A stretch of 51,263 nt of DNA from a phage. A program made the translations under genes and the position numbers. Shown in pieces: positions 1,596-51,263 of the stretch. The notes under the pieces are model-generated. The model saw nothing but the letters and a program-made list of their open reading frames with translations, did not search any database and was not told where the DNA came from. The stretch lies in the sequence record PZ452599.1; one strand, 5' to 3'. The stretch's first letter is position 1. Each line of letters starts with the position of its first letter.

Positions 1596-1598
1596 CAA

Positions 1599-9963: not shown

Positions 9964-9977
9964 AAGGAGATCTTGAG

Positions 9978-22226: not shown

Positions 22227-22301
22227 CAAACTAAACAAATAGCTAAACTTTTATAATGGTTGGTGATATAATTCGCCAACCAGATAACAGGAGAATGAGA
22301 A

Positions 22302-27614: not shown

Positions 27615-27626
27615 CTAGTCACCTCA

Positions 27627-27669
27627 TAGCATTTTTTGTTAAAACAGTTTATTGTAATGAGTCTATTAT
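27627..27669 (+). promoter_or_regulatory. motif-type promoter for helicase operon in divergent region
   Basis: TAGCATTTTTTGTTAAAAC at 27627-27645, 18-nt spacer, TATTAT 27664-27669; the same motif abuts the RBS of divergent gene 27138-27614. Confidence 0.5.
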
Positions 27670-27701
27670 ATACTCCAAATGGCATTTTTTAAAGGTTTAA
27701 G

Positions 27702-30118: not shown

Positions 30119-30158
30119 CACTTTTTGTTAAAACTGGCGCGATGGATTGCGCCATAAT
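30116..30158 (+). promoter_or_regulatory. motif-type promoter (motif, 18-nt hairpin spacer, CATAAT)
   Basis: TAGCACTTTTTGTTAAAAC 30116-30134; spacer hairpin GGCGC...GCGCC; CATAAT 30153-30158; upstream of dam. Confidence 0.5.
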
Positions 30159-31186: not shown

Positions 31187-31229
31187 TAGCACTTTTTGTT
31201 AAAACGCCCGGCCTAGTGTCGGGCATAAT
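31187..31229 (+). promoter_or_regulatory. motif-type promoter
   Basis: Motif 31187-31205; spacer hairpin GCCCG...CGGGC; CATAAT 31224-31229; upstream of gene 31262. Confidence 0.5.
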
Positions 31230-34403: not shown

Positions 34404-34448
34404 AATATACCCGACAATAGGTCGGGCGTTTTAACAAAAAATGCTATT
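34404..34448 (-). promoter_or_regulatory. motif-type promoter
   Basis: Motif variant (AAAAAATGCTATT) 34428-34448; spacer hairpin CCCGAC...GTCGGG; TATATT -10; upstream of gene 34143-34367. Confidence 0.45.
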
Positions 34449-36537: not shown

Positions 36538-36565
36538 TCGTTAGCTTCTCCTTTGTGGGCCGTAA

Positions 36566-36610
36566 ATTTTAACGGCCCAATACTACCCCGTTTTGTCAAA
36601 AAGTGCTATT
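36566..36610 (-). promoter_or_regulatory. motif-type promoter (variant with TTGACA)
   Basis: Motif 36590-36610 (- strand reads AATAGCACTTTTTGACAAAAC); spacer hairpin GGGCCGTT...AACGGCCC; TAAAAT -10; upstream of P-loop gene. Confidence 0.5.
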
Positions 36611-37210: not shown

Positions 37211-37240
37211 GATCAGATCTCCTTTGTTTGTTCGATGTGA

Positions 37241-37284
37241 TTATGCCAGGTTTTTACACCTGGCTTTTAACAAAAAGTGCTATT
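37241..37284 (-). promoter_or_regulatory. motif-type promoter
   Basis: Motif 37264-37284; spacer hairpin GCCAGG...CCTGGC; CATAAT -10; upstream of gene 36824-37210. Confidence 0.5.
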
Positions 37285-39483: not shown

Positions 39484-39769
39484 AAACAACTTTTCCAGTT
39501 AAAGAGATAAGTTGCCTTGTGATTTTGTGGCGGCGATACTGACGCTCGACAACAGGAAGGTTTTCACCGATTTGATGACCAAAACAGATCGGCAATTCAC
39601 CTTCAAGGGATCGGAAGCCACCAAATTCAAGATCCCGCACTGGCTTAGCGCGCCAGGCTTCAATAAATCCGCGCTCGTCACGAGTGATATAGCGGTATAT
39701 ATTCGGGAGGGGCAATTGTATCCCCTCAAAATCCACTGTGTCGGTGTAGCTGTAAAACTTAGAACTCAT
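39482..39769 (-). CDS. hypothetical protein
   Basis: 95 aa from ATG 39769; track start 39820 overlaps an upstream small gene; stop inside motif copy. Confidence 0.45.
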   Translation of the reverse strand: MSSKFYSYTDTVDFEGIQLPLPNIYRYITRDERGFIEAWRAKPVRDLEFGGFRSLEGELPICFGHQIGENLPVVERQYRRHKITRQLISLTGKVV

Positions 39770-39912
39770 AGTCAACAACTCCAAACTCGTTAACGATTTG
39801 CGCCTTATAGAAGCCACCATTTTTCGCCAGGTTGTAACAAGCGGCTAAGGTTTCAAATTCGCGCGCTTCCGGCTGGCTGTTTTCGTGTTCCCAGGTAATC
39901 AGAGTAACCATT
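39763..39912 (-). CDS. hypothetical small protein (49 aa, not in ORF track)
   Basis: ATG 39912 with GAGGA RBS, downstream of motif promoter 39945-39989; leader nearly identical to that of gene 39210-39407. Confidence 0.45.
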
Positions 39913-39944
39913 TTCAAATCCTCGCATTCGTTGTCGATGCGTGT

Positions 39945-39989
39945 AATGTACAGGAATACGAGGATTGAGTTTTAACAAAAAGTGCTATT
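39945..39989 (-). promoter_or_regulatory. motif-type promoter with conserved leader
   Basis: Motif 39969-39989; TACATT -10; leader ACACGCATCGACAACGAATGCGAGGA. Confidence 0.5.
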
Positions 39990-40252
39990 TAGTCCAGGAA
40001 TTCGATTTCACGCTCTCCAGTTAACGGATCCACAAGCCAGAATCCGAGCGGTTCGCCGTGAACACCGCCATAGAATCCAAGCGCTGTCAGATCTTCACCT
40101 TTAACGAATACCAGGTTTCCGCTACGGCTTACGTGAGACACGTTAACGATAACCGGAAATGTGCGATCCTTAAATGCAGGCCGCAGGGCGTAACATCCGT
40201 TGTTGAGCAAACGTGCTTTGCGCTTAACTGGAATAGGTGCATTAATTTTCAT
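39989..40252 (-). CDS. hypothetical protein
   Basis: 87 aa; AAGGAG RBS; stop inside motif copy. Confidence 0.5.
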   Translation of the reverse strand: MKINAPIPVKRKARLLNNGCYALRPAFKDRTFPVIVNVSHVSRSGNLVFVKGEDLTALGFYGGVHGEPLGFWLVDPLTGEREIEFLD

Positions 40253-40478
40253 GGTTATTACTCCTTATCGTAAAGATTTAAAGACGTATAGTTTATTGCG
40301 GTAACTATATATCCGCATTGTTATTTCTCGCAGTGCAATATATTCCTTCCTGTTTTCCGGCAGACTGGCGAGCAATAACAGGCAGTATTTATAAGCGCGG
40401 TCAAGATTTCTTTCCGTGCCCCTGCAATATCCCTTGTTGCGCCTGGAACGGTACAGCCATAACAATTTCTTGAACATT

Positions 40479-40688
40479 TCAGATACGCCCATACAGATCA
40501 CAGACTTCGTTGATAAAACAGCGTTGAGACTCTTTATCCTGCTTCTCAAACATCGCACGGCACTCATAGCGGTGATTATGCACGATGACAACAACCATAT
40601 TTTCAGGTGCTGACGGGTGACGCGCGGAAGCGTCGCAGATTGAAACATCCATACCCATCTCATGTGCTTTCTTGATCACATCCAACAT
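40479..40688 (-). CDS. hypothetical protein
   Basis: 69 aa from ATG 40688 (AGGAGA 7 nt upstream). Confidence 0.45.
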   Translation of the reverse strand: MLDVIKKAHEMGMDVSICDASARHPSAPENMVVVIVHNHRYECRAMFEKQDKESQRCFINEVCDLYGRI

Positions 40689-40942
40689 TTTTTCTTCTCC
40701 TGCAATAAGCAAACATCATTGATAAAATCAGCACGGCCCTTAATGTTGCTGATGTGGAACGTCTTTTCAGCGTACAGGCCATCACCTTCAATCACGATCA
40801 TTACGCGAGTCGGTTTATTCACGGGCGCACACGAAAAGAGTGGTCGCACCGGAAGAAATTTAGTAGCCACATCCAGGTTAGCCCTGGCGGCCCTGCAAAA
40901 TGCCTCCGCCAGATCCAAATCATTTTCGGTAATCACCGCCAT
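40676..40942 (-). CDS. hypothetical protein
   Basis: 88 aa; start overlaps upstream stop. Confidence 0.45.
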   Translation of the reverse strand: MAVITENDLDLAEAFCRAARANLDVATKFLPVRPLFSCAPVNKPTRVMIVIEGDGLYAEKTFHISNIKGRADFINDVCLLQEKKKCWM

Positions 40943-41214
40943 TACTTCTTGATCTCCTCACTGATAAATTTCAGCACCTGACGCAAGAAAACCTCGTTGT
41001 TGATAGTCGCTGGCAATTCTTCTTTCACTTCTTGCGGCAGATAGATATTGCCGTGCCAGGTCAAGCAATCGTAGTTGATACGATAAGAGCAAAGCCACTC
41101 GCAATCGTTATCTGCTTCCCAAATACAGAGTTGCAGAACATCGCCAAAATCTTCAACAGTCAGATCCAGACCGTGACGCTTAGCGAAATTGAAAGTGGTT
41201 TTGCTGATGTTCAT
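40942..41214 (-). CDS. hypothetical protein
   Basis: 90 aa; GGAG RBS; first gene downstream of motif promoter 41249-41293. Confidence 0.5.
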   Translation of the reverse strand: MNISKTTFNFAKRHGLDLTVEDFGDVLQLCIWEADNDCEWLCSYRINYDCLTWHGNIYLPQEVKEELPATINNEVFLRQVLKFISEEIKK

Positions 41215-41248
41215 TGCTATCTCCTGAGCGGTTCGTTTTGATGTGTGT

Positions 41249-41293
41249 AATGTACCCGATCAGACGACCTGAGTTTTAACAAAAAGTGCTATT
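41249..41293 (-). promoter_or_regulatory. motif-type promoter with conserved leader
   Basis: Motif 41273-41293; TACATT -10; leader ACACACATCAAAACGAACCG; upstream of gene 40942-41214. Confidence 0.5.
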
Positions 41294-41322
41294 TGACGGT
41301 TAGCGCCAGGATTGTGATCGAA

Positions 41323-41413
41323 ATAATCAGAAGTAATCATTCGTAATCAAATCACGTCAAAATGATGATTGCCTTTGCAAATTTGATGAGAAAAGTAATC
41401 ACGTTTAATCATT
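41323..41413. repeat. cluster of short GTAATCA / TAATCA iteron-like repeats
   Basis: At least five copies in 90 bp inside the 600-bp non-coding region; a related TTAATCATTAAT element occurs at about 21035-21047. Confidence 0.45.
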
Positions 41414-41831
41414 GGTTGCAGGGGAGATAGTGAAACCTTCCCCTCTTGCCTCACTTTTCCGCCTGGCTGTCAGTGGTTGTTATGTTCCGTTCCCACGTGT
41501 TTTTTTGTTGACCTTCCGCAAAATACGATAACAAAAAATAACAAACAATACCTATATAATACATTGAAAAATAAGGATTATTTATTTATATGTATCTATA
41601 TATTCTCTTTTGTTATCTTGGTTATTGTGGTATTTGGTGGGGGTATATAGTTTTTGTGTATCTGTATGTGTGTATGGGTATGTAGGGGCATATATATCTA
41701 TATGGCGCTTTCCGCGCGAAAACTTCGATAACAGGCAATGATAACATTGATTTATAAGGAAAAATAACGCCCATATTGTTATTGTGCCACCATATAAAAT
41801 TGATAAAACACGCGGGAACAAGAAAAAACAG

Positions 41832-41860
41832 TTGACACATTAAATAGCATTATTGATAAT
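41832..41860 (+). promoter_or_regulatory. sigma70 consensus-like promoter (TTGACA, 17 nt spacer, GATAAT) for the rightward early operon
   Basis: Hexamers at 41832-41837 and 41855-41860; GGAACAAGAAAAA box immediately upstream; RBS and ATG 41889 follow. Confidence 0.6.
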
Positions 41861-41888
41861 GCCCACACCTAACAACCAGGAGGCAGAA

Positions 41889-42353
41889 ATGAGCGAGCAA
41901 TCATTCACTGACACGCTGCGCCGTGCCGCTATTATGCTGGCTAACGGCGAGGAAGAGACGATCAAGATTCCTGACGCGTATTTGCAGGTCCACATGTTCG
42001 GCAAGAAGTCGGCAAGCAATCCGGCGGCCTACATTCGCCAGATCATGAGTCGAGTGCCAGAAGTCGCCGAGCGGGGGCGCGTATCCGTTACCCGTGGCGT
42101 TTACGGGCCGGAAGATGAAAACTTCGGTAGCACTTTCTACGAGGTGCGGATTGTTGAAGGTCGCCGCAAGGTTTACAACAAAGAGGCACTGGAAAGGGCA
42201 GTACGCCAGGCCAAGCGCAAAGTTGCAGAGGCGATCATTGATATGTCACCCAACCTGGCAAACTATGAGCCGGAAGAGTACGAAACATTATCAAAGGCCG
42301 TCGCTGACTTTCACGCGATGATCAAAAAAACTTTCCTGGAGGATGAGCAATGA
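41889..42353 (+). CDS. hypothetical early protein
   Basis: 154 aa from ATG 41889 (AGGAGG RBS); first gene after canonical promoter 41832-41860. Confidence 0.55.
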   Translation: MSEQSFTDTLRRAAIMLANGEEETIKIPDAYLQVHMFGKKSASNPAAYIRQIMSRVPEVAERGRVSVTRGVYGPEDENFGSTFYEVRIVEGRRKVYNKEALERAVRQAKRKVAEAIIDMSPNLANYEPEEYETLSKAVADFHAMIKKTFLEDEQ

Positions 42354-42613
42354 AAAAGGCATTAATCAGCGTTTTGGCGGCAATGGCATTCCTGACCGGA
42401 TGTAATGGTGATGGCGCTTACGTCGATGCGCAAATGGCTAACCCTTCCGATACTTACAACGTCAGAAAACTATTTACAGTTGATGGTTGCGATGTGTACA
42501 GGTTCAGCGATAGCCGATACGTGTACTTTACCAACTGCCAGGGTAGCGCAAACTGGTCAACTAACGAAGGTAAGTCGGTTGGTCACTACCAGAACACAAC
42601 AAACGTGAAATAG
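42350..42613 (+). CDS. lipoprotein (second; candidate superinfection exclusion or surface-modifying protein)
   Basis: 87 aa; ATGA coupling; signal peptide with lipobox FLTGC (MKKALISVLAAMAFLTGC). Confidence 0.55.
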   Translation: MKKALISVLAAMAFLTGCNGDGAYVDAQMANPSDTYNVRKLFTVDGCDVYRFSDSRYVYFTNCQGSANWSTNEGKSVGHYQNTTNVK

Positions 42614-42653
42614 CACTTTTTGTTAAAACGCCAGGTGCAAAGCCTGGCATAAT
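42611..42653 (+). promoter_or_regulatory. motif-type promoter
   Basis: Motif 42611-42629 (begins with stop codon of lipoprotein gene); spacer hairpin GCCAGG...CCTGGC; CATAAT 42648-42653. Confidence 0.5.
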
Positions 42654-42685
42654 AGCCTCATCGAAACGAGATTGAGGAAACAAAA

Positions 42686-42871
42686 ATGGCACGTCGCATC
42701 ACCAAAGACCTTAAAGTTCTTAACAAAGAAAACGTAGTTAAAATCCTGGTTATTTGGGGCTACAACGAAGAAACAGCAAAGCAGAAGGTAGAGGCAGGTT
42801 ATGACCTGGCTGTAAAAGCAATGCCAAACGACGACGCCAAAGGCATTGCAAACTATGTAGCTTTCTTTTAA
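42686..42871 (+). CDS. hypothetical protein
   Basis: 61 aa; GAGGAAA RBS; downstream of motif promoter 42611-42653. Confidence 0.5.
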   Translation: MARRITKDLKVLNKENVVKILVIWGYNEETAKQKVEAGYDLAVKAMPNDDAKGIANYVAFF

Positions 42872-42886
42872 TTAGCGGGTGAATAA

Positions 42887-43072
42887 ATGAAAACGAAATT
42901 AGTCCATAAATCAGAAATTAAGATCGGCGATACTGTGATTCACAACGGCGAGCTTAGAACGGTTGGCAAAGAGTCAATAAGCCACGATGAATTTATGGGG
43001 ATCTTGTTGTTCGGTGACTCTTATCGTCTTGGTTACAAGATGGTTGAGCTTGTGGAAGAGGTAAAATTCTAA
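42887..43072 (+). CDS. hypothetical protein
   Basis: 61 aa; GGGTG RBS; C-terminus VELVEEVKF resembles C-termini of 44364 and 44582 gene products. Confidence 0.45.
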   Translation: MKTKLVHKSEIKIGDTVIHNGELRTVGKESISHDEFMGILLFGDSYRLGYKMVELVEEVKF

Positions 43073-43073
43073 A

Positions 43074-43116
43074 TAGCACTTTTTGTTAAAACTCGAAAAC
43101 GATAACCAGGCATAAT
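43074..43116 (+). promoter_or_regulatory. motif-type promoter
   Basis: Motif 43074-43092; 18-nt spacer; CATAAT 43111-43116; upstream of gene 43172. Confidence 0.5.
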
Positions 43117-43171
43117 AAATCACATAGGGCGGCACGGCGTCACCCAGTTAAACCAATCAGGAGAAAGCACC

Positions 43172-44065
43172 ATGTTAAAACTTGCTGACATTAAATTCCC
43201 TATCACCTTCGAATCTCGCGGCATTGGTCATTACATTTTTACCGATGAAAAAACATGCCATAAGGTTGATATGAATAGCGACAAACTAAGCCCATCAACA
43301 ATGGAGATCCTGCACTTTATTGATGCGCACAATACGCATTACAACGCACTTAAAGACTATGGCTATGCAATGCCAGGCTACACATGTTTGCACTACAAGC
43401 CATATAAGGGCCAGGTGTTACCAGTGCGCTCACCGGAACGCGCAGAGATTCCGATGGTCAATATGAAAACCTGCGACTACAAAAAGCTGTGGTGCTTAAG
43501 TCTGGACAATATCAAGTATCCGATCACGTTCCACACGACTGGTAAGTCAACGATTCGCTACACATCGCGCGACAATGGCGTTTATAGCGATGGTACGAAA
43601 TCAGAGTTGAAAGTTGATTTCTTTGTCAACGGTCACAACAAATTCAATCCGCACAACGAAGAGGATAAAGTGTATTACGTGGAAGACATTACAAAACACT
43701 TGTTTGGAGAAACTCCATTCGGCGGCGGAAAGACGTCAATTCAAAAAATCATTGGCGAGGAGATCCACAAAGCGGCTGCCGAAATGAAAGCGCCTGGAGG
43801 CTGGCGTATTGATAAGAGCGCCTTTGCCTATCAAGAAATCGTAACGCAGGGCGCGATTGAAGATATGCCAGTTGCAGCCACGCTAAAAGGAGTCCGACTT
43901 GATGACGGCACATGGTATGAGTTAACGGCTACACCAAAGACGATCGAAATTCATGATGATGTTGTTATCCTTCTGCTTCACTACGGCGGCACTAAAAACC
44001 GGACTGTTGCAGGTGAGATCAGCATCAAGCGCGGAACGATGGTTAAGTGGAAGGTGAAGATTTGA
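43172..44065 (+). CDS. hypothetical protein with internal duplication
   Basis: 297 aa; AGGAGA RBS; two related segments (LADIKFPITFESRG... / LDNIKYPITFHTTG...). Confidence 0.55.
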   Translation: MLKLADIKFPITFESRGIGHYIFTDEKTCHKVDMNSDKLSPSTMEILHFIDAHNTHYNALKDYGYAMPGYTCLHYKPYKGQVLPVRSPERAEIPMVNMKTCDYKKLWCLSLDNIKYPITFHTTGKSTIRYTSRDNGVYSDGTKSELKVDFFVNGHNKFNPHNEEDKVYYVEDITKHLFGETPFGGGKTSIQKIIGEEIHKAAAEMKAPGGWRIDKSAFAYQEIVTQGAIEDMPVAATLKGVRLDDGTWYELTATPKTIEIHDDVVILLLHYGGTKNRTVAGEISIKRGTMVKWKVKI

Positions 44066-44141
44066 GTTTGCTCACTGCGGCGCACGTCGCCGCATGGATC
44101 GGATTGTTTGCCTACCTGTTTAGCTTTTATTGAGGTGAGAG

Positions 44142-44294
44142 ATGGCTACCTGGATTTTGCTGATTCTTATGATTGATGGCGGCGTTGACCATATCGAAAT
44201 GAATAGCCAGCAATCTTGCATTGAGGCACGAGAGCAGATCAAGAACAACAACAGGTTTTATGCGTACACTCACACGCTATGTATTAAGAAATAG
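44142..44294 (+). CDS. small membrane protein (50 aa, not in ORF track)
   Basis: ATG 44142 with GAGGTGAGAG RBS; N-terminal hydrophobic helix WILLILMI; stop TAG begins next motif copy. Confidence 0.45.
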   Translation: MATWILLILMIDGGVDHIEMNSQQSCIEAREQIKNNNRFYAYTHTLCIKK

Positions 44295-44333
44295 CACTTT
44301 TTGTTAAAACTCAAATGTGGGGCCAGGTATAAT
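44292..44333 (+). promoter_or_regulatory. motif-type promoter
   Basis: Motif 44292-44310; TATAAT 44328-44333 lies in the loop of hairpin GGGCC...GGCCC; upstream of gene 44364. Confidence 0.5.
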
Positions 44334-44363
44334 GGCCCTACTTTCAACGAAGGAGATAAAACG

Positions 44364-44582
44364 ATGTACATTAAAAAGAAGATGAAATGCGTTTCCGTTA
44401 ACTATGCTTGCTCTGGTATGTTCAAGCCTGGCGAAATCTATACAGCGCAAAAACTGAAATCATCAACCGGATCTTTTTACGTGAGCAATAGTAAGGGGCA
44501 TCGCATGTTCCTGAACGGCGGCGAAGGCACTAAGGTTATGGCACACGCTATGGTAATGGCTGAATTTGAGGAGGTGAAATAA
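44364..44582 (+). CDS. small protein of FxPGxxY family, paralog 1
   Basis: 72 aa from ATG 44364 (AAGGAG RBS); FKPGEIY...FLNGGEG and C-terminal AEFEEVK shared with next gene and HAD-protein C-terminus. Confidence 0.5.
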   Translation: MYIKKKMKCVSVNYACSGMFKPGEIYTAQKLKSSTGSFYVSNSKGHRMFLNGGEGTKVMAHAMVMAEFEEVK

Positions 44583-44815
44583 TGATCATTGAAAACAACT
44601 TTCTTTGCGTTAAGAGCAATCGACCATTCTTCACGCCTGGCAAGGTGTACCAGGGCAAGAAGGACACAAGAGATGGTCACTCTTATCATGTTCACTGCAA
44701 CAACGGATACAAGTTTTACCTTAACGGCGAGAATGGAACTGAGATCGTTGCTTTTGAAAACGTAGTTGCCGAGTTTGAGCAGCTTACAGACGCTGAATTT
44801 GAGGAAGTGAAATAA
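44582..44815 (+). CDS. small protein of FxPGxxY family, paralog 2
   Basis: 77 aa; TAATG overlap; FTPGKVY...YLNGENG; ends AEFEEVK. Confidence 0.5.
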   Translation: MIIENNFLCVKSNRPFFTPGKVYQGKKDTRDGHSYHVHCNNGYKFYLNGENGTEIVAFENVVAEFEQLTDAEFEEVK

Positions 44816-44817
44816 TC

Positions 44818-45027
44818 ATGGATCAGAACAAAACAGCAAAATATAAATTCACTGACGACTACGGAGACACTATCGACGTTTATCAGCGTGGGAATCAGAT
44901 CTTTATAGATGGCACTTTCGAATATGGCCGGATGCCAGACTTTCGGGGAATACTTTCGGCAGATAGCGCGCGACGCATGGCGAACGTGTTAAATAAACTG
45001 GCGGCAAAGATTGAGGCGATGCAATGA
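44818..45027 (+). CDS. hypothetical protein
   Basis: 69 aa; tightly packed after paralog 2. Confidence 0.45.
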   Translation: MDQNKTAKYKFTDDYGDTIDVYQRGNQIFIDGTFEYGRMPDFRGILSADSARRMANVLNKLAAKIEAMQ

Positions 45028-45815
45028 AAAAATACACTTTCGAACTGTGGGGCAAGAAGTACGAATTAATCACCAGCAAGCCGATTGTTATCGTTGATCT
45101 GGACGGCACGCTATCGGAAGGATCGCATCGTTTGCATTTGCTGCCAACTGAAAACTTGCACCTTACGGAATCGTGGCGCGAGTTTAACAGGGCCGCCGCC
45201 GGAGATTCACCGATTAAAAGCACTATCGCGGTTATTAACGGTTTATGGGTGTCGGGATTTGCCATCGTCATCTTGACCGGACGCAGCGACGAGGTTCGCT
45301 ATGAAACCTGCAAATGGTTGAATGAGAACGGCGTGAAGTTTGACGAAATCATCATGCGCCGCCAGGAGGACAACCGAAAGGATACGGTTATTAAAGAAGA
45401 AGCCTTGCGCGCTATTGGCCTGGACAACATTGTTTGCGCCTTTGACGATTCGCCGAACGTGGTTAAGCACTTCCGCAGCTTGGGGATCACAACCTATCAG
45501 GTCACGGAATACGACAAGCCACACGCTCACATACAATCTCACGGCGTGGATGAATTGAAGTCAAAAATCGAATGCGAAGGCGAGCACTGTTTTAGTGTGG
45601 TTGATGGTAAATGTTTGCGTTGCGGCGTGGAATCAATCAAGATCACGAAGCGCGCCCGATTCGTCGGCAGCAAAGACAGCCTGGTCAATGCCAGCTTTAT
45701 CAAAGGCAAGGTTTATGATGTTCATAGCCATGATAAAAACCGATTCTTTTTGTGGGATGAAAAAGGTTTTGGCTGGTGCTTTAAGCATGACGACGGCGAT
45801 TTTGTTAATGCGTAA
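45024..45815 (+). CDS. HAD-family phosphatase with C-terminal zinc-ribbon / FxPGxxY-like domain
   Basis: 263 aa; HAD motif I VIVDLDGTL, motif II ILTGRSD, motif IV FDDS; C-terminal CxxC...CxxC followed by FIKGKVYDV...FLWDEKG. Confidence 0.6.
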   Translation: MKKYTFELWGKKYELITSKPIVIVDLDGTLSEGSHRLHLLPTENLHLTESWREFNRAAAGDSPIKSTIAVINGLWVSGFAIVILTGRSDEVRYETCKWLNENGVKFDEIIMRRQEDNRKDTVIKEEALRAIGLDNIVCAFDDSPNVVKHFRSLGITTYQVTEYDKPHAHIQSHGVDELKSKIECEGEHCFSVVDGKCLRCGVESIKITKRARFVGSKDSLVNASFIKGKVYDVHSHDKNRFFLWDEKGFGWCFKHDDGDFVNA

Positions 45816-45858
45816 TAGCACTTTTTGTTAAAACATCTTAACGGGCTTGCGGTATAGT
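45816..45858 (+). promoter_or_regulatory. motif-type promoter
   Basis: Motif 45816-45834; TATAGT 45853-45858 inside hairpin GGGCTT...AAGCCC; upstream of gene 45890. Confidence 0.5.
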
Positions 45859-45889
45859 AAGCCCATCAACAACAAACGAGGATTAAATC

Positions 45890-46153
45890 ATGGCTAACAA
45901 GATCGAATTTTTCAAAGCGGTAGACATTATTGATGGCGCGCCTAGCTTCTTTGCGATCCATTCTATTGACGGCAAGGATATTGGGTACAACGTTATCCGT
46001 CGAGATGGAATCTCAAAACTTAGCGATCTGGTAGGACATATTGTGTCAAACGGGAAATGCGCATGGCCCGATTCGCAACGAGAGCCACGCCGCCGCGACA
46101 TGGTAGAGCCTGTTCTGCTTTACACTCTGGTAGTAGAAGGAGAAAATAAATGA
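45890..46153 (+). CDS. hypothetical protein
   Basis: 87 aa; GAGGA RBS; downstream of motif promoter 45816-45858. Confidence 0.5.
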   Translation: MANKIEFFKAVDIIDGAPSFFAIHSIDGKDIGYNVIRRDGISKLSDLVGHIVSNGKCAWPDSQREPRRRDMVEPVLLYTLVVEGENK

Positions 46154-46335
46154 TTTGGTTACTTGCTTTTTTGGTTGTTTTTCTTTACATTTCAGGCTTG
46201 TTTACGTTCCGCGCGTTGGTGAAATATTCTGACGCGACAGACAAAGACGATAAAATCGTTCTCGCTTTCTGGTTTGTTTGGGTGTGGTTAGCAATTTACG
46301 AGATCATCAGAGACAAACAGAAATTTGAGTGGTGA
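46150..46335 (+). CDS. small membrane protein (two predicted TMDs)
   Basis: 61 aa; ATGA coupling; hydrophobic LLAFLVVFLYISGLF and LAFWFVWVWLAIY segments. Confidence 0.45.
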   Translation: MIWLLAFLVVFLYISGLFTFRALVKYSDATDKDDKIVLAFWFVWVWLAIYEIIRDKQKFEW

Positions 46336-46391
46336 TTCTTGCTATGGCGCATTCATGCAGTGCGCCATGTTGAGAAAACCTAAAGGGGGAA

Positions 46392-46535
46392 ATGATGCGT
46401 AACTTTGAAAAAATCATTACCAAAAAGAAGCGTCGCGGGTACGATGAGCATGTGGAGTTTGTGAACAAACAGCGCAAGAAGCGCCATAGACGCGAAATGC
46501 TGCATAATATCAAATCACGCTATGGAGAAAACTAA
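46392..46535 (+). CDS. small basic protein (47 aa, not in ORF track)
   Basis: ATG 46392 with AGGGGG RBS; K/R-rich; stop abuts next ATG. Confidence 0.4.
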   Translation: MMRNFEKIITKKKRRGYDEHVEFVNKQRKKRHRREMLHNIKSRYGEN

Positions 46536-46727
46536 ATGCAATTGCCACCATTTGACAAAAAAAGCGAAGAGATTGCCAAAACTGCATGTCACCTTCGAGA
46601 GCTTGCCGACATGATAGAGCGCGGTCAGGTTATGATTGTCAATATGACGATCAAAAGCGAGAATAGAAATTTCAAGGTTTTAAGCGAGACAACAGAAATT
46701 ACCGTCTTGAAAGCAAGGGGAGAGTAA
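46536..46727 (+). CDS. hypothetical protein
   Basis: 63 aa; immediately after small basic ORF and before kinase. Confidence 0.45.
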   Translation: MQLPPFDKKSEEIAKTACHLRELADMIERGQVMIVNMTIKSENRNFKVLSETTEITVLKARGE

Positions 46728-46729
46728 TC

Positions 46730-47320
46730 ATGAAACGAGACATTATCATCCTTAATGGGCCTCCAGGTTGTGGAAAGGACACTATTGCAGCTTACCTAAC
46801 GGGCCATCGTTACCCTGCTGTCAAGGCGTCATTCAAACAGCCGATGTTCGATATTGCGTTTTCCATGCTGGGAGTGTACCGATACGATGAATTTATGGAC
46901 CTGTACAACGACCGAGAACAAAAAGAAAAGCCTCAAGTTATTTTGGGCGGCAAGTCACCTCGACAATTCATGATCTGGATTAGCGAGGATGTAATGAAGC
47001 CAGTTTTTGGAGATCACTATTTCGGGCGTCGAATGGTTGAAGAGATTCACGAGATGTACCGAGATTTGGCGGTTGTGATCAGTGATGGCGGATTCCCCGA
47101 AGAAATCAAACCGCTGGTTAAGGCAGGGCATGAAGTGCATATTTGCCGATTGCATCGCGACGGCTTCACGTTTGCTGGCGATTCGAGAGACTACATTGAC
47201 CTGAGCGGTTATCACTATCGAATCCATCACTATGACTTCCACTTGCAGGACGGCAAACCGGAACTGGCTGTAAACGAGATCGTCAATGCTGTCAAATGGA
47301 AACACACGCAGATTAAATAG
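46730..47320 (+). CDS. P-loop nucleotide/nucleoside-monophosphate kinase (T4 gp1 dNMP kinase-like)
   Basis: 196 aa; Walker A LNGPPGCGKDT; stop is followed by a variant motif copy. Confidence 0.55.
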   Translation: MKRDIIILNGPPGCGKDTIAAYLTGHRYPAVKASFKQPMFDIAFSMLGVYRYDEFMDLYNDREQKEKPQVILGGKSPRQFMIWISEDVMKPVFGDHYFGRRMVEEIHEMYRDLAVVISDGGFPEEIKPLVKAGHEVHICRLHRDGFTFAGDSRDYIDLSGYHYRIHHYDFHLQDGKPELAVNEIVNAVKWKHTQIK

Positions 47321-47358
47321 CACGAATTGCTAAACGCGGGGCGCAATGCCTCGCTATA
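47321..47358 (+). promoter_or_regulatory. variant motif (TAGCACGAATTGCTAAAC) followed by TATAAT
   Basis: Begins with kinase stop TAG; TATAAT at 47353-47358; upstream of gene 47391. Confidence 0.4.
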
Positions 47359-47390
47359 ATGCAAACACCAATCAACGAGAGGAAATCACA

Positions 47391-47771
47391 ATGGTTAACA
47401 TCAGAAAAATCCGCGTCGGCACTAAATTCTTAGTTACTTACGCAATTCCAGATAGCGGAATGAAGAAGGGCCAGATTGTTAAGGTTGATAGCAAAAGATT
47501 CGGAATCCCTGGTATCAATGGCTATCTAATCAATAGAGATCTTGGATTCGACGGCTTCGCTATCCGTGCGCTTGAGGGTATTGTTGCCACTCTTAAACGA
47601 ATCACTAATCATCGCGGCTGCCCAATCAAGACGATTAAAGCGCCAATAAATTACGGCAAACTGGATAATCGTCGAATCCGCCGCCTGGCGCGTAACGCGT
47701 TAAAATTCCGTGGCGTAGGCGATGATTTCTACTATGGATACAAGAGGATTGCGCGCAATGCTGGGAAATAA
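47391..47771 (+). CDS. hypothetical protein
   Basis: 126 aa from ATG 47391 (GAGAGG RBS), downstream of TATAAT at 47353-47358. Confidence 0.45.
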   Translation: MVNIRKIRVGTKFLVTYAIPDSGMKKGQIVKVDSKRFGIPGINGYLINRDLGFDGFAIRALEGIVATLKRITNHRGCPIKTIKAPINYGKLDNRRIRRLARNALKFRGVGDDFYYGYKRIARNAGK

Positions 47772-47870
47772 CAATAACGCAACGAATCCTAAGCCACCTT
47801 TTGATTTTCATTCCGCAATGATTGCGGTATTATCAATGCTACTTTTTCTTTATAGCATGAGGGCGCTACT

Positions 47871-48119
47871 ATGGTTTTTAACGCATTAAAACGACTGTTT
47901 AAGCCGGAATACCGGATCGTATTTTGCCGCGACTGTTCTACTTATCATGTGCAGCGACGCAGCTTAGGCGGCAATTGGCACTATGTTACAGATGACTTTT
48001 TCGGCATCATTGCCACTGAATTTAAGTATTACAGTGATGCTTATATGTACGTGAAGAAGCGCCACCGCTTACGCAAGTGTCGTTTTTCCGTGCTGATTCA
48101 CGTTAATGATTGTTACTGA
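47871..48119 (+). CDS. hypothetical Cys-containing basic protein
   Basis: 82 aa; GAGGG RBS; CRDC motif. Confidence 0.45.
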   Translation: MVFNALKRLFKPEYRIVFCRDCSTYHVQRRSLGGNWHYVTDDFFGIIATEFKYYSDAYMYVKKRHRLRKCRFSVLIHVNDCY

Positions 48120-48126
48120 GGTGAAA

Positions 48127-48309
48127 ATGAAAACTGGTATTATTATTCTTTTCCTGATCCTTTTCGGTAGCCATTTAACCATTAACTATGAGGGCATTAT
48201 GGCCTTTTGGGGCAACTTGATGGTTTTTGCCGCTGGTTCAATTACTGGCTACTCTGACGGGAAAAAGGACGGTGTTCGCAAGATGCTGATGGGACTTAAA
48301 CAAAAATAA
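48127..48309 (+). CDS. small membrane protein
   Basis: 60 aa from ATG 48127 (GAGGTG RBS); hydrophobic IIILFLILFG and LMVFAAGSITG segments. Confidence 0.45.
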   Translation: MKTGIIILFLILFGSHLTINYEGIMAFWGNLMVFAAGSITGYSDGKKDGVRKMLMGLKQK

Positions 48310-48320
48310 GGGGATCTGAA

Positions 48321-48611
48321 ATGGCAAACAAAACTTACCGCAAACTACTGGTTAACGCTTTTGAAAACATTGCGCAGTGTAACAAGTGGAACGACTCTAA
48401 ACACTCGCCAGTCACAATGAAGCGCGCCGGATTCAAAAATGCTCGTTCATGGGCGCGAGCTTTCGCAGCTTGCTATATGCCGGATGGTGGACTAGGAGCG
48501 ATGAACGATTTTTTGATCAACATGATAGAGGAAGCTGCGCGAGAGGATCGACCGCTGACACAGCGAGATTTTGACGACTTCGCGCGCGATGAGCTTTACT
48601 ATCTGAGCTAA
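48321..48611 (+). CDS. hypothetical protein
   Basis: 96 aa; AAGGGG RBS; stop followed by motif copy. Confidence 0.5.
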   Translation: MANKTYRKLLVNAFENIAQCNKWNDSKHSPVTMKRAGFKNARSWARAFAACYMPDGGLGAMNDFLINMIEEAAREDRPLTQRDFDDFARDELYYLS

Positions 48612-48654
48612 TAGCACTTTTTGTTAAAACTTCCGCAAGGGCATTTGATAAAGT
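48612..48654 (+). promoter_or_regulatory. motif-type promoter
   Basis: Motif 48612-48630; GATAAA-like -10 inside hairpin AAGGGCA...TGCCCTT; upstream of gene 48687. Confidence 0.45.
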
Positions 48655-48686
48655 GCCCTTATTGAAGCGAAACAGAGGAAAGCGCA

Positions 48687-48899
48687 ATGAAAATCAAAAT
48701 CACCAAAATCGACACCATCAACGGCGACGGATCAATCACTCTTGAGCAATGCGGTTTGGTTGTTGGTGATGTGCTGGAGGTTGACGGTCATTTCAGCGAC
48801 GGATCTTATTGTGTTATTGCGCCGCGTAACAGCGAGTTTATCAAGGCTGGCGATAATATTAGTGTTAACCATGACGAATGCGAGGTAGTAGAAGAATGA
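48687..48899 (+). CDS. hypothetical protein
   Basis: 70 aa; GAGGAAA RBS; downstream of motif promoter 48612-48654. Confidence 0.5.
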   Translation: MKIKITKIDTINGDGSITLEQCGLVVGDVLEVDGHFSDGSYCVIAPRNSEFIKAGDNISVNHDECEVVEE

Positions 48900-49159
48900 T
48901 CACGATTAACCTGTCAGAGCAGCAAGCGCGCATTATGTTAGCGGCCTTTGGTTGGCGAGATGATGACGGTATTCAGGCAACGGTTAAAATCCCTGAGACG
49001 GTAGCGCGTGAAGTTTTTAACCAGCTTGAACACGCATTTGTTCCTGTTGGCACTGATCAGGCAGAAACAGCGGCTTGGTTCGGAGAGAACGGATACAGAG
49101 ATCAGCAAGTCGAAAACTGGAAGCGCATAAACGAGACTATGGAGGAATCAGGTTTATGA
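48896..49159 (+). CDS. hypothetical protein
   Basis: 87 aa from ATG 48896; ATGA coupling. Confidence 0.45.
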   Translation: MITINLSEQQARIMLAAFGWRDDDGIQATVKIPETVAREVFNQLEHAFVPVGTDQAETAAWFGENGYRDQQVENWKRINETMEESGL

Positions 49160-49470
49160 TTTACATTCACTACTACCAAATCGGAACTAACGAGAACAAA
49201 AAAGAGCATCGTTTCATCCACGATGATTTTGACAAGGCAAAGGCCCAGCAACAGGTTTTAGGCGGCGTTATTCAGGCTTTTGAGCCTGTGGAAGATATTG
49301 AGTACCGCGAGCATTTAAAAGATGTTGTTATTGATGAGATCTCTTGCTTGATTGATGATATGACAAATCACGGCCCTGGTTCCCCGTGGGAAGATGCAGG
49401 ATCTGTAACGTGGGATAAGGCCAAAGTTAAGACGCTAAACAACTTTCGAGAGATTCTCGACGGTTTTTAA
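49156..49470 (+). CDS. hypothetical protein
   Basis: 104 aa from ATG 49156 (GGAGG RBS); ATGA coupling. Confidence 0.5.
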   Translation: MIYIHYYQIGTNENKKEHRFIHDDFDKAKAQQQVLGGVIQAFEPVEDIEYREHLKDVVIDEISCLIDDMTNHGPGSPWEDAGSVTWDKAKVKTLNNFREILDGF

Positions 49471-49540
49471 TTAAAAACGCATAGCCGTTAGAGCGCCTCA
49501 ATCGCATTCTAACGAGCTATTTTTCTGGTAAGGTGATTTA

Positions 49541-49669
49541 ATGGATGAGTACAAACAACCTTCGCAGTGGTGCAAAGAGAAGCAAGAAGAGGCACTGGAG
49601 CGCGGAGATGTGGAAGAAGCTATGAACTATTTCAAACTTGCGGAAGAATGGAAGGGGAGAGGATACTGA
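49541..49669 (+). CDS. hypothetical small acidic protein (42 aa, not in ORF track)
   Basis: ATG 49541 with AAGGTG RBS; stop overlaps next ATG; alternative to the RBS-less upstream extension of track ORF 49567-49899. Confidence 0.35.
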   Translation: MDEYKQPSQWCKEKQEEALERGDVEEAMNYFKLAEEWKGRGY

Positions 49670-49899
49670 TGTTCGGCATGAATGAGGCGCAATTCAACGC
49701 AGCTAAACGCCAGGCTAAAAAGTGCGGCGAGGCGATGAAAGCGGATGTGGAAAAGCGCGGGAAGTATGTTGATGAAGTAATGAAGGGCATCATTGCAGAA
49801 CACTACCAGCCAATCGCGCCAATGTTGACGATCACTCAATTCATTTGGCTATGTGGTTACTTGCGTGGACGTTGGGGGAACGCTTTCGACAGGGAATGA
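49669..49899 (+). CDS. hypothetical protein
   Basis: 76 aa from ATG 49669 (GGAGAGGA upstream); shorter form of track ORF 49567-49899. Confidence 0.45.
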   Translation: MFGMNEAQFNAAKRQAKKCGEAMKADVEKRGKYVDEVMKGIIAEHYQPIAPMLTITQFIWLCGYLRGRWGNAFDRE

Positions 49900-50061
49900 T
49901 TGACAACTCTTTCCTGATTGGTTAGCATGGCGTCGTTTACATAAGAGCGGCTTAGTCCGAACGCGTGACGCGATAGTCACACAGCAACGGCGATATGCAG
50001 GAGGTTTTTGCAATGCAAGATAATCCGTAAGACGTATCGCCTTTTTTAATGGAGATCCAAA

Positions 50062-50295
50062 ATGATTAAATACAAATTAACCGTTTCTTTCCGTGATACC
50101 GTTATTCATCCTTTCTACAATAGCTTTGTTAACAGCTTTACAGTAGAAGCGACAGAGGATCAGCTGGACGGTGACGAAACTTGCATTTCTATTGGAAATG
50201 TTGCTTACCCGATTCACAACATTACCAGCATTAAGCGTGAGGTTGTCGCTGATGAATTACAAAGTGAAGATGACGATCCGGCGAATGGGGCGTAA
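50062..50295 (+). CDS. hypothetical protein with acidic C-terminus
   Basis: 77 aa; GGAG RBS; preceded by hairpin plus T-run. Confidence 0.5.
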   Translation: MIKYKLTVSFRDTVIHPFYNSFVNSFTVEATEDQLDGDETCISIGNVAYPIHNITSIKREVVADELQSEDDDPANGA

Positions 50296-50437
50296 TTGCC
50301 AATCATGCAAACAGGAATATGAATGCGTAGTTGATGCTCTTGATGAACTGGAAGCAGTAGCAAAAGCAAAAGAGCAATCGGGCGCTAATCCTGAAACACA
50401 TCAATTTTCAATTAACCTTGTGAGGGCTTTACAATGA
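50252..50437 (+). CDS. hypothetical protein (start uncertain)
   Basis: 61 aa from ATG 50252 (GAGG 9 nt upstream); overlaps end of previous gene in another frame; ATGA-coupled to next gene; alternative starts at 50270 and 50285. Confidence 0.35.
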   Translation: MNYKVKMTIRRMGRNCQSCKQEYECVVDALDELEAVAKAKEQSGANPETHQFSINLVRALQ

Positions 50438-50658
50438 TCGCATTATCTTTCTGCATTGGTTTTATCATGGCTATCATTATCTTTTCCGTTGTCATGCGCT
50501 TTGCTTATAAGTTCGTGATTAATAAAGGTTGGTACGCTTCTGCAATCTGGAGCGAAAAACAAAAGAAATGGCTTGTACGTGGTCAATACCTGATGATCGG
50601 TAGCAAGATCCTAAATTCCATTCGAGCCAAAGATGGGAAAGTAAAATATACAGCTTAA
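50434..50658 (+). CDS. small membrane protein
   Basis: 74 aa; N-terminal TMD IALSFCIGFIMAIIIFSVV; followed by terminator. Confidence 0.5.
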   Translation: MIALSFCIGFIMAIIIFSVVMRFAYKFVINKGWYASAIWSEKQKKWLVRGQYLMIGSKILNSIRAKDGKVKYTA

Positions 50659-50662
50659 AAAT

Positions 50663-50688
50663 CACCCGCCGCACGGCGGGTTTTTTAT
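50663..50688 (+). terminator. intrinsic terminator before terS promoter
   Basis: Hairpin CCCGCCG-CAC-GGCGGG followed by TTTTTT. Confidence 0.65.
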
Positions 50689-50699
50689 TGCCCGTTGTT

Positions 50700-50708
50700 T
50701 GGTATAAT
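50700..50708 (+). promoter_or_regulatory. extended -10 promoter element (TGGTATAAT) upstream of terS
   Basis: TGnTATAAT at 50700-50708, between terminator 50663-50688 and terS RBS. Confidence 0.5.
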
Positions 50709-50736
50709 CAGGCATCTAACCAAAGGAGGATTAACA

Positions 50737-51263
50737 ATGGCTAAAAACGTTGAGCCTGCTGTAAAGGCATTAAATTTCAAAGAGTTATACAATAAAACTT
50801 ATGGCGATATTGTTACGCTAAACAACCGCCACAAGTACACGCCGGAACAGGTTTTTGATATGGCGATCCGCTATTTCACTTGGGCCGAAGAGAATCACAT
50901 CCAGGCGGCTGAAACTGCTTCCTTTCAGGGTGACGTGTACGAGAGCAGAGTTTACAAGCCTCGCGTTTTCACGGTTAACGGATTCAGCTTGTATCTCGGC
51001 GTGACTGAGGCCGCCGTAAGCAAATGGCGTAAAGAGCCTGGATTCTGCGATGTGATGGAGTTTGTTGATAAAGTAATTTACGAGCAAAAATTCCAGCTTG
51101 CGGCAAATAACATGATTAACGCTGGATTTATCGGTAAAGAGATCGGAGTAGAGAAGCCAGCAACAGTGAGCGTTGAAGCGAGCGCGGCAGCTAATGCAAG
51201 CATTGACGCAGTAACTGCCGATGAGGTGAAAGAGGCTGTGATTGATATTCTGGAGCAACTTTA
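50737..51263 (+). CDS. terS: terminase small subunit (3' end completed only if window ends are joined)
   Basis: AAAGGAGGA RBS; 175 codons to window end; final TA plus position 1 A forms TAA overlapping terL ATG; HTH-like FSLYLGVTEAAVSKW segment. Confidence 0.6.
   Translation, partial: MAKNVEPAVKALNFKELYNKTYGDIVTLNNRHKYTPEQVFDMAIRYFTWAEENHIQAAETASFQGDVYESRVYKPRVFTVNGFSLYLGVTEAAVSKWRKEPGFCDVMEFVDKVIYEQKFQLAANNMINAGFIGKEIGVEKPATVSVEASAAANASIDAVTADEVKEAVIDILEQL

What the first reader, a model, noticed from the sequence alone, without database searches (positions are those of the whole stretch)
42630..42653. Inverted repeats fill the spacer of most motif promoters and sometimes enclose the -10
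Between the motif and the -10 hexamer most copies carry a 5-7 bp GC-rich inverted repeat with no following T-run: GCCAGG..CCTGGC at 42630-42648, GGCGC..GCGCC at 30136-30152, GCCCG..CGGGC at 31206-31223, and CCAGG..CCTGG at 37246-37263. In others the hairpin encloses the -10 itself (44317-44340, 45843-45864, 48636-48660; also 22264-22285 and 47805-47820). The stem sequences differ but the position is conserved, suggesting structure-dependent promoter function or a protein site with dyad symmetry.
Basis: seen in the sequence. Interest (0 to 1): 0.6.

Follow-up and report, generated by a model that had tools for sequence, protein, structure and literature searches.

The report
Promoter-embedded RNA hairpins in T1-like phage
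In this T1-like coliphage, the repeated promoters that precede many small genes carry short GC-rich hairpins between the upstream motif and the transcription start; these hairpins covary across related phages and look like RNA structures belonging to the gene upstream, the same promoter-plus-stem-loop design already described in T4-like phages.

Summary
The window is a T1-like phage (Drexlerviridae, Warwickvirus). Its 21-nt motif sits a fixed 18 nt upstream of a -10 hexamer. Nine of 16 copies carry a GC-rich stem of at least 5 bp in the next 36 nt, against 2.4% of background windows and 0 of 1000 shuffles.

In 528 distinct promoters from related phages, 44% have such a stem (background 3.8%). 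They fall in two positions: inside the spacer, or enclosing the -10 and ending at -1.

Stems covary strongly. G.T juxtapositions outnumber A.C 49:7, 36 of 48 tetraloops are GNRA and none is the reverse complement, and the sense strand folds better than the antisense. This excludes a protein dyad site, a symmetric cruciform and an antisense terminator.

Promoters with no same-direction gene upstream lack hairpins (0/17 orthologues against 32/59). Hairpin-less promoters keep the same geometry.

The best reading is an RNA hairpin in read-through transcripts of the upstream gene, acting as attenuator or 3'-end protector, written into the free promoter positions. This matches the PeSL cassettes of T4-like phages and is undescribed for T1-like phages. 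Most hairpins lack a U-tract, so they are not canonical terminators. The function itself is inferred, not shown.

The parts
42609..42629 (+). 21-nt promoter motif AATAGCACTTTTTGTTAAAAC. It is itself a dyad, TAGCA-N5-TGTTA. The TAG/TAA at its start stops the upstream ORF 42350-42613.
42630..42648 (+). Class I hairpin filling the spacer: GCCAGGU-GCAAA-GCCUGGC, 7 bp including one U.G. The last C is the first base of the -10 CATAAT (42648-42653). The inferred start is the A at 42660.
   Evidence: -13.6 kcal/mol, z -3.0; orthologues have C-G in place of U.G
30135..30154 (+). Class I hairpin of promoter 30114 (motif 30114-30134; -10 CATAAT 30153-30158).
   Evidence: -11.9, z -2.9
31206..31224 (+). 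Class I hairpin of promoter 31185 (-10 CATAAT 31224-31229). It contains a G.U and is followed by the T-rich AUAAUUAUUUC; scored terminator-like.
   Evidence: -13.2, z -2.9; compensatory C-G to A-U in an orthologue
34409..34427 (-). Class I hairpin of the minus-strand promoter 34448-34428 (-10 TATATT 34404-34409). Paralogue of the 31206 hairpin; terminator-like tail.
   Evidence: -11.4, z -3.2
37246..37263 (-). Class I hairpin CCAGGU-GUAAAA-ACCUGG of the minus-strand promoter 37284-37264 (-10 CATAAT 37240-37245). Paralogue of the 42630 hairpin.
   Evidence: -9.5, z -3.7
36556..36579 (-). Class II hairpin UGGGCCGU-UAAAAUUU-ACGGCCCA enclosing the -10 TAAAAT of the minus-strand promoter 36610-36590.
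   Evidence: -15.6, z -3.0; orthologues keep a hairpin with different stems
44317..44341 (+). Class II hairpin GUGGGGCCA-...-UGGCCCUAC (one G.U) enclosing TATAAT (44328-44333) of promoter 44290. Here the spacer is 17 nt.
   Evidence: -17.1, z -3.5
45843..45864 (+). Class II hairpin GGGCUU(GC)-...-(GU)AAGCCC enclosing TATAGT (45853-45858) of promoter 45814. The 3' arm ends at -1.
   Evidence: -14.9, z -4.3
48637..48660 (+). Class II hairpin AAGGGCA-...-UGCCCUU enclosing TAAAGT (48649-48654) of promoter 48610. The 3' arm ends at -1.
   Evidence: -14.2, z -4.2; covariation in 48 relatives
47337..47354 (+). Weaker class I hairpin with a G.U (CGGGGC-GCAAU-GCCUCG) in an extra motif copy at 47316-47336 (GAA/TGCTA variant; -10 TATAAT 47355-47360).
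   Evidence: -9.2, z -1.1; not significant alone
22257..22282 (+). 10-bp hairpin whose 6-nt loop is exactly the -10 TATAAT, downstream of a degenerate motif-like sequence and upstream of the gene at 22302.
   Evidence: -16.9, z -6.7
27625..27681 (+). Motif promoter without a hairpin. It is divergent from the minus-strand gene 27138-27614, so no same-direction transcription comes in.
   Evidence: z +0.1; 0 of 11 orthologues have a hairpin
41237..41293 (-). Motif promoter without a hairpin, first of the leftward operon. Its spacer looks like a decayed CCGGUC..GAUCGGG hairpin.
   Evidence: z +0.5; 0 of 6 orthologues have a hairpin
39933..39989 (-). Motif promoter without a hairpin despite a same-direction gene upstream. 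Many orthologues do carry one, so this is a loss or swap.

Best explanation
The dyads are hairpins of the sense-strand RNA, not DNA or protein sites.

Anatomy of one cassette:
- a 21-nt dyad motif, whose TAG/TAA is usually the stop codon of the upstream gene;
- 18 nt of free spacer;
- a -10 hexamer;
- a 6-nt discriminator;
- a conserved start A-UCGAAACGAGGA, then the start codon.

The only unconstrained positions between the upstream stop codon and the transcription start are the spacer and the discriminator. That is exactly where the two hairpin classes sit: -30 to -12, or about -24 to -1.

Polymerases that start at the promoter never transcribe the hairpin. Only polymerases arriving from the upstream gene do. 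The hairpin therefore belongs to the 3' end of the upstream cistron.

Most likely it attenuates read-through and/or blocks 3' exonucleases, so that each small gene behaves as an insulated promoter-gene-hairpin cassette. The repeated cassettes also act as recombination linkers.

Shown here: the hairpins exist, are positioned, covary and are sense-strand specific. Inferred: the transcription start site, and the attenuator or stabiliser activity.
For: Enrichment:
- 9/16 in the window against 2.4% background.
- 232/528 distinct promoters in relatives against 3.8%.
- 68/163 after redundancy reduction.

Position:
- Two sharp classes. 5' arms start at 0-2 or 6-9 nt after the motif; 3' arms end at 17-19 or at 29 (= -1).
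- An unbiased antidiagonal scan peaks at i+j = 35, 37 and 17-21.

Covariation:
- 48 sequences chosen on the loop only: 88.5% of cells paired, against 68% shuffled and 33-48% slid. 74 double-change cells against 20.6 expected; score 0.563 against 0.18; 0/500 shuffles.
- RNAalifold finds the same stem unprompted, with 6 pairs showing compensatory changes.
- The class I family shows the same on a smaller scale.

Sense-strand specificity:
- Bridged G.T against A.C: 96 to 3 raw, 49 to 7 after de-duplicating stems.
- 36 of 48 four-nucleotide loops are GNRA, 0 are the reverse complement.
- Sense RNA is more stable than antisense in 28/33 class I and 32/35 class II representatives. The difference is -1.8 to -3.1 kcal/mol, against +1.1 to -0.3 in composition shuffles.

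Link to upstream transcription:
- The stop codon of the upstream ORF lies inside or at the motif; it is the motif's TAG in 198/313 cases.
- Hairpins occur in 51% of promoters with a same-direction ORF of at least 60 codons upstream, against 22% without.
- Orthologues of window promoters: 32/59 against 0/17.

Precedent: PeSL cassettes of the T4-like phages RB49/phi1 have the same anatomy. This includes the upstream stop codon, G-T pairs, and stem-loops 'most commonly between -35 and -10 or overlapping the -10', or just before the start. One such stem-loop cut lacZ read-through like rrnB T1 (PMC2839356).

Cassette behaviour: homology breakpoints with Poky, tunus and JLBYU07 often fall at cassettes, and tunus has an extra gene flanked by two motifs.
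Against: - No transcript data exist for any T1-like phage in the searchable literature. The start site is inferred only from sigma-70 geometry.
- Most hairpins have no U-tract. Class II tails hold 1.2 T in 8 nt, and T-rich discriminators are not enriched behind class I stems. Canonical intrinsic termination cannot be the general mechanism.
- Attenuation versus stabilisation cannot be separated here.
- The association with an upstream ORF rests on crude ORF calls and related sequences. A stricter 'divergent' class was too small to test (10 cases).
- Three window promoters with upstream genes lack hairpins, so the element is dispensable.
- G.T pairs and GNRA-like loops are also fairly stable in single-stranded DNA, so a sense-strand ssDNA hairpin is not excluded.
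Confidence: 0.6

Rival explanations
1. DNA-level, structure-dependent promoter. The spacer extrudes as a cruciform or non-template-strand hairpin. In class II this would present the -10 as a pre-melted loop, so that promoter strength depends on supercoiling.
For: - Position is fixed relative to the -10.
- In class II the loop holds the -10, exactly so at 22257-22282.
- The TTGnTA-to--10 distance of 22 bp is too long for a normal -35.
- The sense strand is the non-template strand, so the G.T bias alone does not exclude a one-strand DNA hairpin.
Against: - 56% of promoters lack hairpins but keep identical geometry.
- Class I and class II interchange at orthologous promoters.
- Promoters without incoming transcription have none (0/17).
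- A cruciform needs both strands, but the antisense strand would carry A.C mismatches.
- Stems of 5-8 bp with 4-12-nt loops extrude poorly (general knowledge).
Confidence: 0.12
2. All of them are ordinary Rho-independent terminators that happen to overlap promoters.
For: - GC-rich stems with GNRA loops lie 16 or more nt after the upstream stop codon.
- 31206-31224 and 34409-34427 pass the terminator scan.
- In T4-like phage KP15 a motif-bearing cassette holds an ARNold-predicted terminator with a real T-run.
Against: - Class II, the larger class, is followed by AUCGAA (1.2 T in 8 nt).
- Class I tails are just the -10.
- There is no enrichment of T-rich discriminators.
Confidence: 0.1
3. The hairpins serve cassette recombination or mobility, as preferred crossover or nicking sites, rather than gene expression.
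For: - Breakpoints fall at cassettes.
- One hairpin type (CCGGTCAG..GATCGGG) has spread to several promoters of one genome.
- A complete cassette sits in an unrelated T4-like phage.
- PeSL crossovers were mapped in or beside the loop (PMC2839356).
Against: - Recombination acts on duplex DNA and would not favour G.T over A.C or GNRA over its complement.
- It does not explain the absence of hairpins at operon-first promoters.
Confidence: 0.08
4. Binding site of a dimeric protein (an operator inside the spacer, MerR-like), or an antisense-strand terminator that uses the motif's T-run.
For: - The spacers have dyad symmetry.
- On the opposite strand, class I stems are followed by GTTTTAAC.
Against: - Stem sequences differ between promoters and covary.
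- Strand asymmetry favours the sense strand.
- No convergent genes need terminating.
Confidence: 0.03

Closest known systems
PeSL / PmSL cassettes (promoter-early or promoter-middle stem-loops) of T4-like phages RB49, phi1, PST, nt-1 (Arbiol 2010 PMC2839356; Comeau 2014 PMC4122927)
   Same: - Repeated intergenic cassette that begins with the upstream stop codon and ends with the SD and start codon.
- GC-rich stem-loop with G-T pairs placed between the upstream element and the -10, over the -10, or just before the start.
- Clustered among small ORFs.
- Sits at indel or replacement breakpoints.
   Different: - The host phage is a T1-like siphovirus.
- The upstream element is a 21-nt dyad motif centred near -42, not a consensus -35.
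- Stems are varied rather than polyG/polyC.
- Covariation and strand bias are shown here, but no reporter assay has been done.
Rho-independent terminators
   Same: GC-rich hairpin, frequent GNRA tetraloops, located shortly after a stop codon.
   Different: No U-tract in most copies. The 3' flank is a -10 hexamer or the conserved leader.
3'-terminal stabiliser hairpins (REP-type or intercistronic stem-loops that stop PNPase/RNase II)
   Same: A stable hairpin without a U-tract between cistrons. It is dispensable and variable in sequence.
   Different: Not a repeated sequence family. It is embedded in a promoter. The activity is untested.
The 21-nt intergenic repeat of phage TLS (PMC11447400, 2024)
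   Same: The same motif, aaATAGCACnnnTTGnTAAAA, oriented with transcription about 76 nt before start codons.
   Different: That paper leaves the function open and, in the abstract, transcriptional-elements section and discussion passage read here, mentions neither the fixed -10, the motif's own dyad, nor the spacer hairpins.
Annotated 'putative middle promoter' overlapping 'putative terminator' in Klebsiella phage KP15 (GU295964.1)
   Same: One KP15 promoter is a complete T1-type cassette. Its neighbour has the motif variant, a terminator hairpin and the same leader.
   Different: T4-like genome. In the neighbour the motif-to--10 distance is about 30 nt and a true T-run is present.

Membership tests
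PeSL-type promoter/stem-loop cassette | [quoted passage not shown] | tested here: met
   The stop codon lies in or at the motif in most cases, and is the motif's TAG in 198/313. The leader and SD are conserved.
PeSL-type promoter/stem-loop cassette | Stable stem-loop between the upstream promoter element and the -10, over the -10, or just before the start; G-T pairs allowed | tested here: met
PeSL-type promoter/stem-loop cassette | Near-consensus sigma-70 -35 and -10 with 17-bp spacing | tested here: not met
   The -10 is present at a fixed position. TTGnTA lies 22 bp away. A 21-nt dyad motif replaces the -35.
PeSL-type promoter/stem-loop cassette | Located among small variable ORFs and at indel or replacement breakpoints | tested here: met
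   About 10 of 28 internal homology ends fall in cassettes that cover about 7% of the region. tunus has an extra gene between two motifs. Only three relatives were compared.
PeSL-type promoter/stem-loop cassette | The stem-loop reduces downstream expression (terminator or attenuator assay) | not testable with these tools
   Needs a reporter assay or Term-seq.
Rho-independent terminator | U-rich tract directly 3' of the stem | tested here: not met
   Class II tails hold 1.2 T in 8 nt and class I tails 3.5. Only 2 of 9 window hairpins pass the scan.
MerR-type spacer operator | One conserved dyad sequence inside a 19-20-bp -35/-10 spacer | tested here: not met
   Stems differ and covary. The spacing is 22 bp from TTGnTA.
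N4-type hairpin promoter | 5-7-bp stem with a conserved 3-nt loop read by a phage RNA polymerase | tested here: not met
   Loops are 4-12 nt and variable. The TLS authors found no RNA polymerase gene in phage TLS (PMC11447400). The window's genes were not scanned for one.
lambda-type nut/boxB | The same short hairpin with a GNRA-like pentaloop repeated in one phage, with boxA | tested here: not met
   Loops and stems differ between copies. Class II loops contain the -10. There is no Rfam hit in the window.

The most novel reading that the evidence does not exclude
The hairpins act at the promoter itself. A non-template-strand hairpin would display the -10 hexamer as a ready-melted loop (class II) or shorten the overlong distance between the motif and the -10 (class I). 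That would make these activator-type promoters sensitive to supercoiling or to passage of an upstream polymerase, a structure-gated promoter class in a dsDNA phage that uses host RNA polymerase.
Probability: 0.08. Interest if true: 0.8.

Novelty: new member of a known kind. Interest (0 to 1): 0.45.

Why it matters
T1 is a classical phage whose transcription signals are still undefined. A 2024 paper lists the function of the 21-nt repeat as an open question.

This analysis shows three things:
- The repeat is the upstream half of a promoter with a fixed -10.
- The free promoter positions are used to encode covarying RNA hairpins for the gene upstream.
- The whole unit behaves like the mobile promoter/stem-loop cassettes of T4-like phages, and is even found inside one.

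It gives concrete, cheap experiments (end-mapping, reporter assays). It also explains how dense arrays of small phage genes can be both insulated from each other and shuffled.

Tried and rejected
- Canonical terminator reading. I looked for U-tract enrichment behind class I stems (T-rich discriminators in 33% against 25% of hairpin-less promoters, not significant), so this was rejected as a general mechanism.
- Covariation of the unusual -12 C of CATAAT with a G at the start of the spacer. It is clear in some families but weak overall (OR 2.2, P 0.04), so it is not used as evidence.
- A strict 'divergent promoter' class across all loci. Only 10 cases, several of them mis-called small genes; no significant difference.
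- Rfam scan of the window: no hit.
- Literature: an exact-motif search found nothing. No transcript-mapping paper for Drexlerviridae turned up. The T1-like taxonomy paper gives only promoter and terminator counts.
- A second IMG/VR scan anchored on the 48610 spacer gave only 14 loci. Covariation sets were therefore built from the first 120 loci.
- Sigma-54, an extended -10 inside the motif, and the MotA box were considered by eye for the motif and dropped. The key bases or spacings do not fit; this is reasoning only, not a test.

Full report
**What the window is.** Region 41-49 kb is 93-97% identical to Escherichia phages NorthRox, MikeNSara, tonijn, vB_EcoS-95, Poky and others. These belong to Drexlerviridae, Tempevirinae, Warwickvirus. 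The gene order follows the annotated phage FritzSarasin.

**The promoters.** The 21-mer AATAGCACTTTTTGTTAAAAC occurs 16 times with at most 3 mismatches, on both strands; none is expected by chance. A looser pattern finds about 20 copies.
- Every copy is followed after 18 nt (once 17) by a -10-like hexamer such as CATAAT, TATAAT, TATAGT or TAAAGT.
- Six nucleotides later comes a conserved A-TCGAAACGAGGA leader.
- In 528 distinct copies from 120 IMG/VR loci of T1-like phages, the hexamer at that position is TATAGT (105), CATAAT (93), TATTAT (73) and so on.
- The motif was published for phage TLS as a 21-nt repeat of unknown function (PMC11447400).
- The transcription start is my inference from sigma-70 geometry. 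No mapping data were found.

**Check of the observation.** All listed dyads exist, with small coordinate offsets.
- As RNA, the nine hairpin regions fold at -9.5 to -17.1 kcal/mol with z -2.9 to -4.3. Six other copies show no structure.
- Nine of 16 copies have a perfect stem of at least 5 bp with at least 4 GC in the 34 nt after the motif. Background in the window is 2.4% (P 3e-11), and no set of 1000 shuffles exceeded 2.
- In relatives, 232/528 distinct promoters (44%) pass the same rule (scored over 36 nt), against 3.8% of random windows. After redundancy reduction it is 68/163.
- Even promoters failing the rule fold better than shuffles (-8.4 against -4.2 kcal/mol). The strict count is therefore an underestimate.

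**Anatomy.** There are two sharp classes.
- Class I lies inside the spacer. The 5' arm starts 0-2 nt after the motif, and the 3' arm ends at the first one or two bases of the -10.
- Class II encloses the -10. The 5' arm starts 6-9 nt after the motif, and the 3' arm usually ends exactly at -1.
- Hairpins rarely reach into the transcribed leader.
- An unbiased scan of all promoters for excess complementarity peaks on the same antidiagonals.

**Covariation.** Orthologous and paralogous sets show many compensatory changes.
- Examples: AAGGCCA/TGGCCTT, AAGGGCA/TGCCCTT, AAGCCCA/TGGGCTT, AAGAGGCA/TGCCTCTT and AAGGCACA/TGTGCCTT, all around a conserved loop. Another is TACCCG..CGGGTA against TGCCCG..CGGGCA.
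- On 48 sequences chosen by the loop alone, 88.5% of cells pair. Shuffled controls give 68% and slid partners 33-48%. There are 74 double-change cells against 20.6 expected; 0/500 shuffles reach this.
- RNAalifold recovers the stem unprompted.
- A smaller class I set gives the same picture in two adjacent registers.
- Part of this variation comes from swapping whole hairpins between cassettes. The point changes inside otherwise similar hairpins are the stronger evidence.

**Which molecule.** The signal is strand-specific.
- Mismatches flanked by pairs are G.T far more often than A.C: 96 to 3 raw, 49 to 7 after de-duplicating stems.
- Of 48 four-nucleotide loops, 36 are GNRA and none is the reverse complement.
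- The sense RNA is more stable than the antisense in 28/33 class I and 32/35 class II representatives. Composition shuffles do not reproduce the difference.
- This rules out a protein dyad site, a symmetric cruciform and an antisense terminator.
- It fits an RNA of the sense strand. A sense-strand DNA hairpin fits less economically.

**Whose RNA.** The hairpins lie upstream of the inferred start, so only transcripts from the upstream gene contain them.
- That gene's stop codon is usually the TAG or TAA at the start of the motif (198/313 at the TAG). The hairpin therefore begins 16 or more nt after the stop.
- In the window, all nine hairpin promoters follow a same-direction gene. Four of the seven without a hairpin do not.
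- Across relatives, hairpins occur in 51% of promoters with a same-direction upstream ORF of at least 60 codons and in 22% without.
- For orthologues of the window's promoters the figures are 32/59 against 0/17. The two operon-first promoters, 27625 and 41293, account for the 17. The 41293 spacer looks like a decayed hairpin.
- These counts use crude ORF calls and related sequences. A stricter class was too small to test.

**What it does.** Canonical termination is unlikely in general.
- Class II tails are AUCGAA (1.2 T in 8 nt). Class I tails are just the -10. T-rich discriminators are not enriched.
- Only 31206-31224 and 34409-34427 look terminator-like.
- I therefore commit to a hairpin that marks the 3' end of the upstream cistron, as an attenuator without a full U-tract and/or an exonuclease barrier. 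This is inferred, not shown.
- Frequent loss, gain and class switching at orthologous promoters fit a useful but dispensable element.

**Comparison with what is known.** PeSL cassettes of the T4-like phages RB49/phi1 have the same parts in the same order.
- Those parts are the upstream stop codon, the promoter, a stem-loop with G-T pairs, and then the SD and start codon. [quoted passage not shown]
- One such stem-loop lowered lacZ expression like rrnB T1.
- PeSLs also mediate gene shuffling (PMC2839356; PMC4122927).
- Here too, homology breakpoints with Poky, tunus and JLBYU07 often fall at cassettes, and tunus carries an extra gene between two motifs.
- The main difference is the promoter type. 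A 21-nt motif, itself a dyad TAGCA-N5-TG(C/T)TA centred near -42, replaces the -35.
- I found no description of these hairpins for T1-like phages.

**Verdict.** The feature is real, non-random and under selection for pairing. It is a new member of a known kind, the promoter/stem-loop cassette. Interest is moderate.

Noticed in passing
window 42609-42629 and all other motif copies: The 21-nt motif is itself an inverted repeat, TAGCA-N5-TG(C/T)TA, with a variable centre. Its middle lies near -42 from the inferred start, the classic position of a dimeric class II activator. RNAalifold pairs these columns in all 48 sequences, with no covariation.
   Followed up: partly
window 27138-27614 (-): The 158-aa ORF next to the divergent motif promoter 27625 has a weak Cro/YdaS-like helix-turn-helix (Pfam E 1e-6, just under the cutoff). 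It is annotated 'putative transcriptional regulator' in FritzSarasin. It is a candidate binder of the motif; untested.
   Followed up: partly
all motif copies; e.g. window 42611-42613: The TAG (or an overlapping TAA/TGA) at the start of the motif is the stop codon of the upstream gene in most cassettes (198/313 at the TAG). Recombination between motifs would therefore always restore a stop.
   Followed up: yes
L014 / L132 (Klebsiella phage KP15, GU295964.1, about 10000-10087 and 10386-10425): A complete T1-type cassette sits in a T4-like Slopekvirus: exact motif, class II hairpin, TATAGT, TACCCC, ATCGAAAC. It is annotated 'putative middle promoter'. The neighbouring promoter has a motif variant, an ARNold terminator and the same leader. 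Only about 90 nt resemble the window. This points to cassette transfer across phage families.
   Followed up: partly
window 6190-6210 (-) and 9944-9964 (-): Two motif copies point against the plus-strand structural genes. The 9964 copy has an AU-rich hairpin (z -4.9) and runs into a bidirectional terminator about 25 nt after its -10. It could make only a tiny RNA or act in some other way.
   Followed up: no
window, about 7 nt after each -10 (e.g. 42660-42675): The leader is conserved: A-TCGA(A/C)AACGAGGA, starting at the inferred +1 and running into the Shine-Dalgarno.
   Followed up: no
window 39500-51263 against L128-L130: Homology with close relatives breaks at or next to motif cassettes (42595, 41294, 44289, 45814, 43137/43155, 39908). 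Phage tunus has an extra gene bracketed by two motifs.
   Followed up: partly
window 1565-1630 (+): A degenerate motif copy after the large terminase gene is followed by a textbook terminator, AAGGCTGGA-TTTT-TCCAGCCTT plus a T-run (z -5.5). Here the hairpin is a real terminator.
   Followed up: partly
L001-L127, several promoters per genome: One spacer hairpin type, CCGGTCAG.G.GATCGGG, with a conserved G.T, precedes several different genes in some relatives. This suggests gene conversion of whole cassettes.
   Followed up: no
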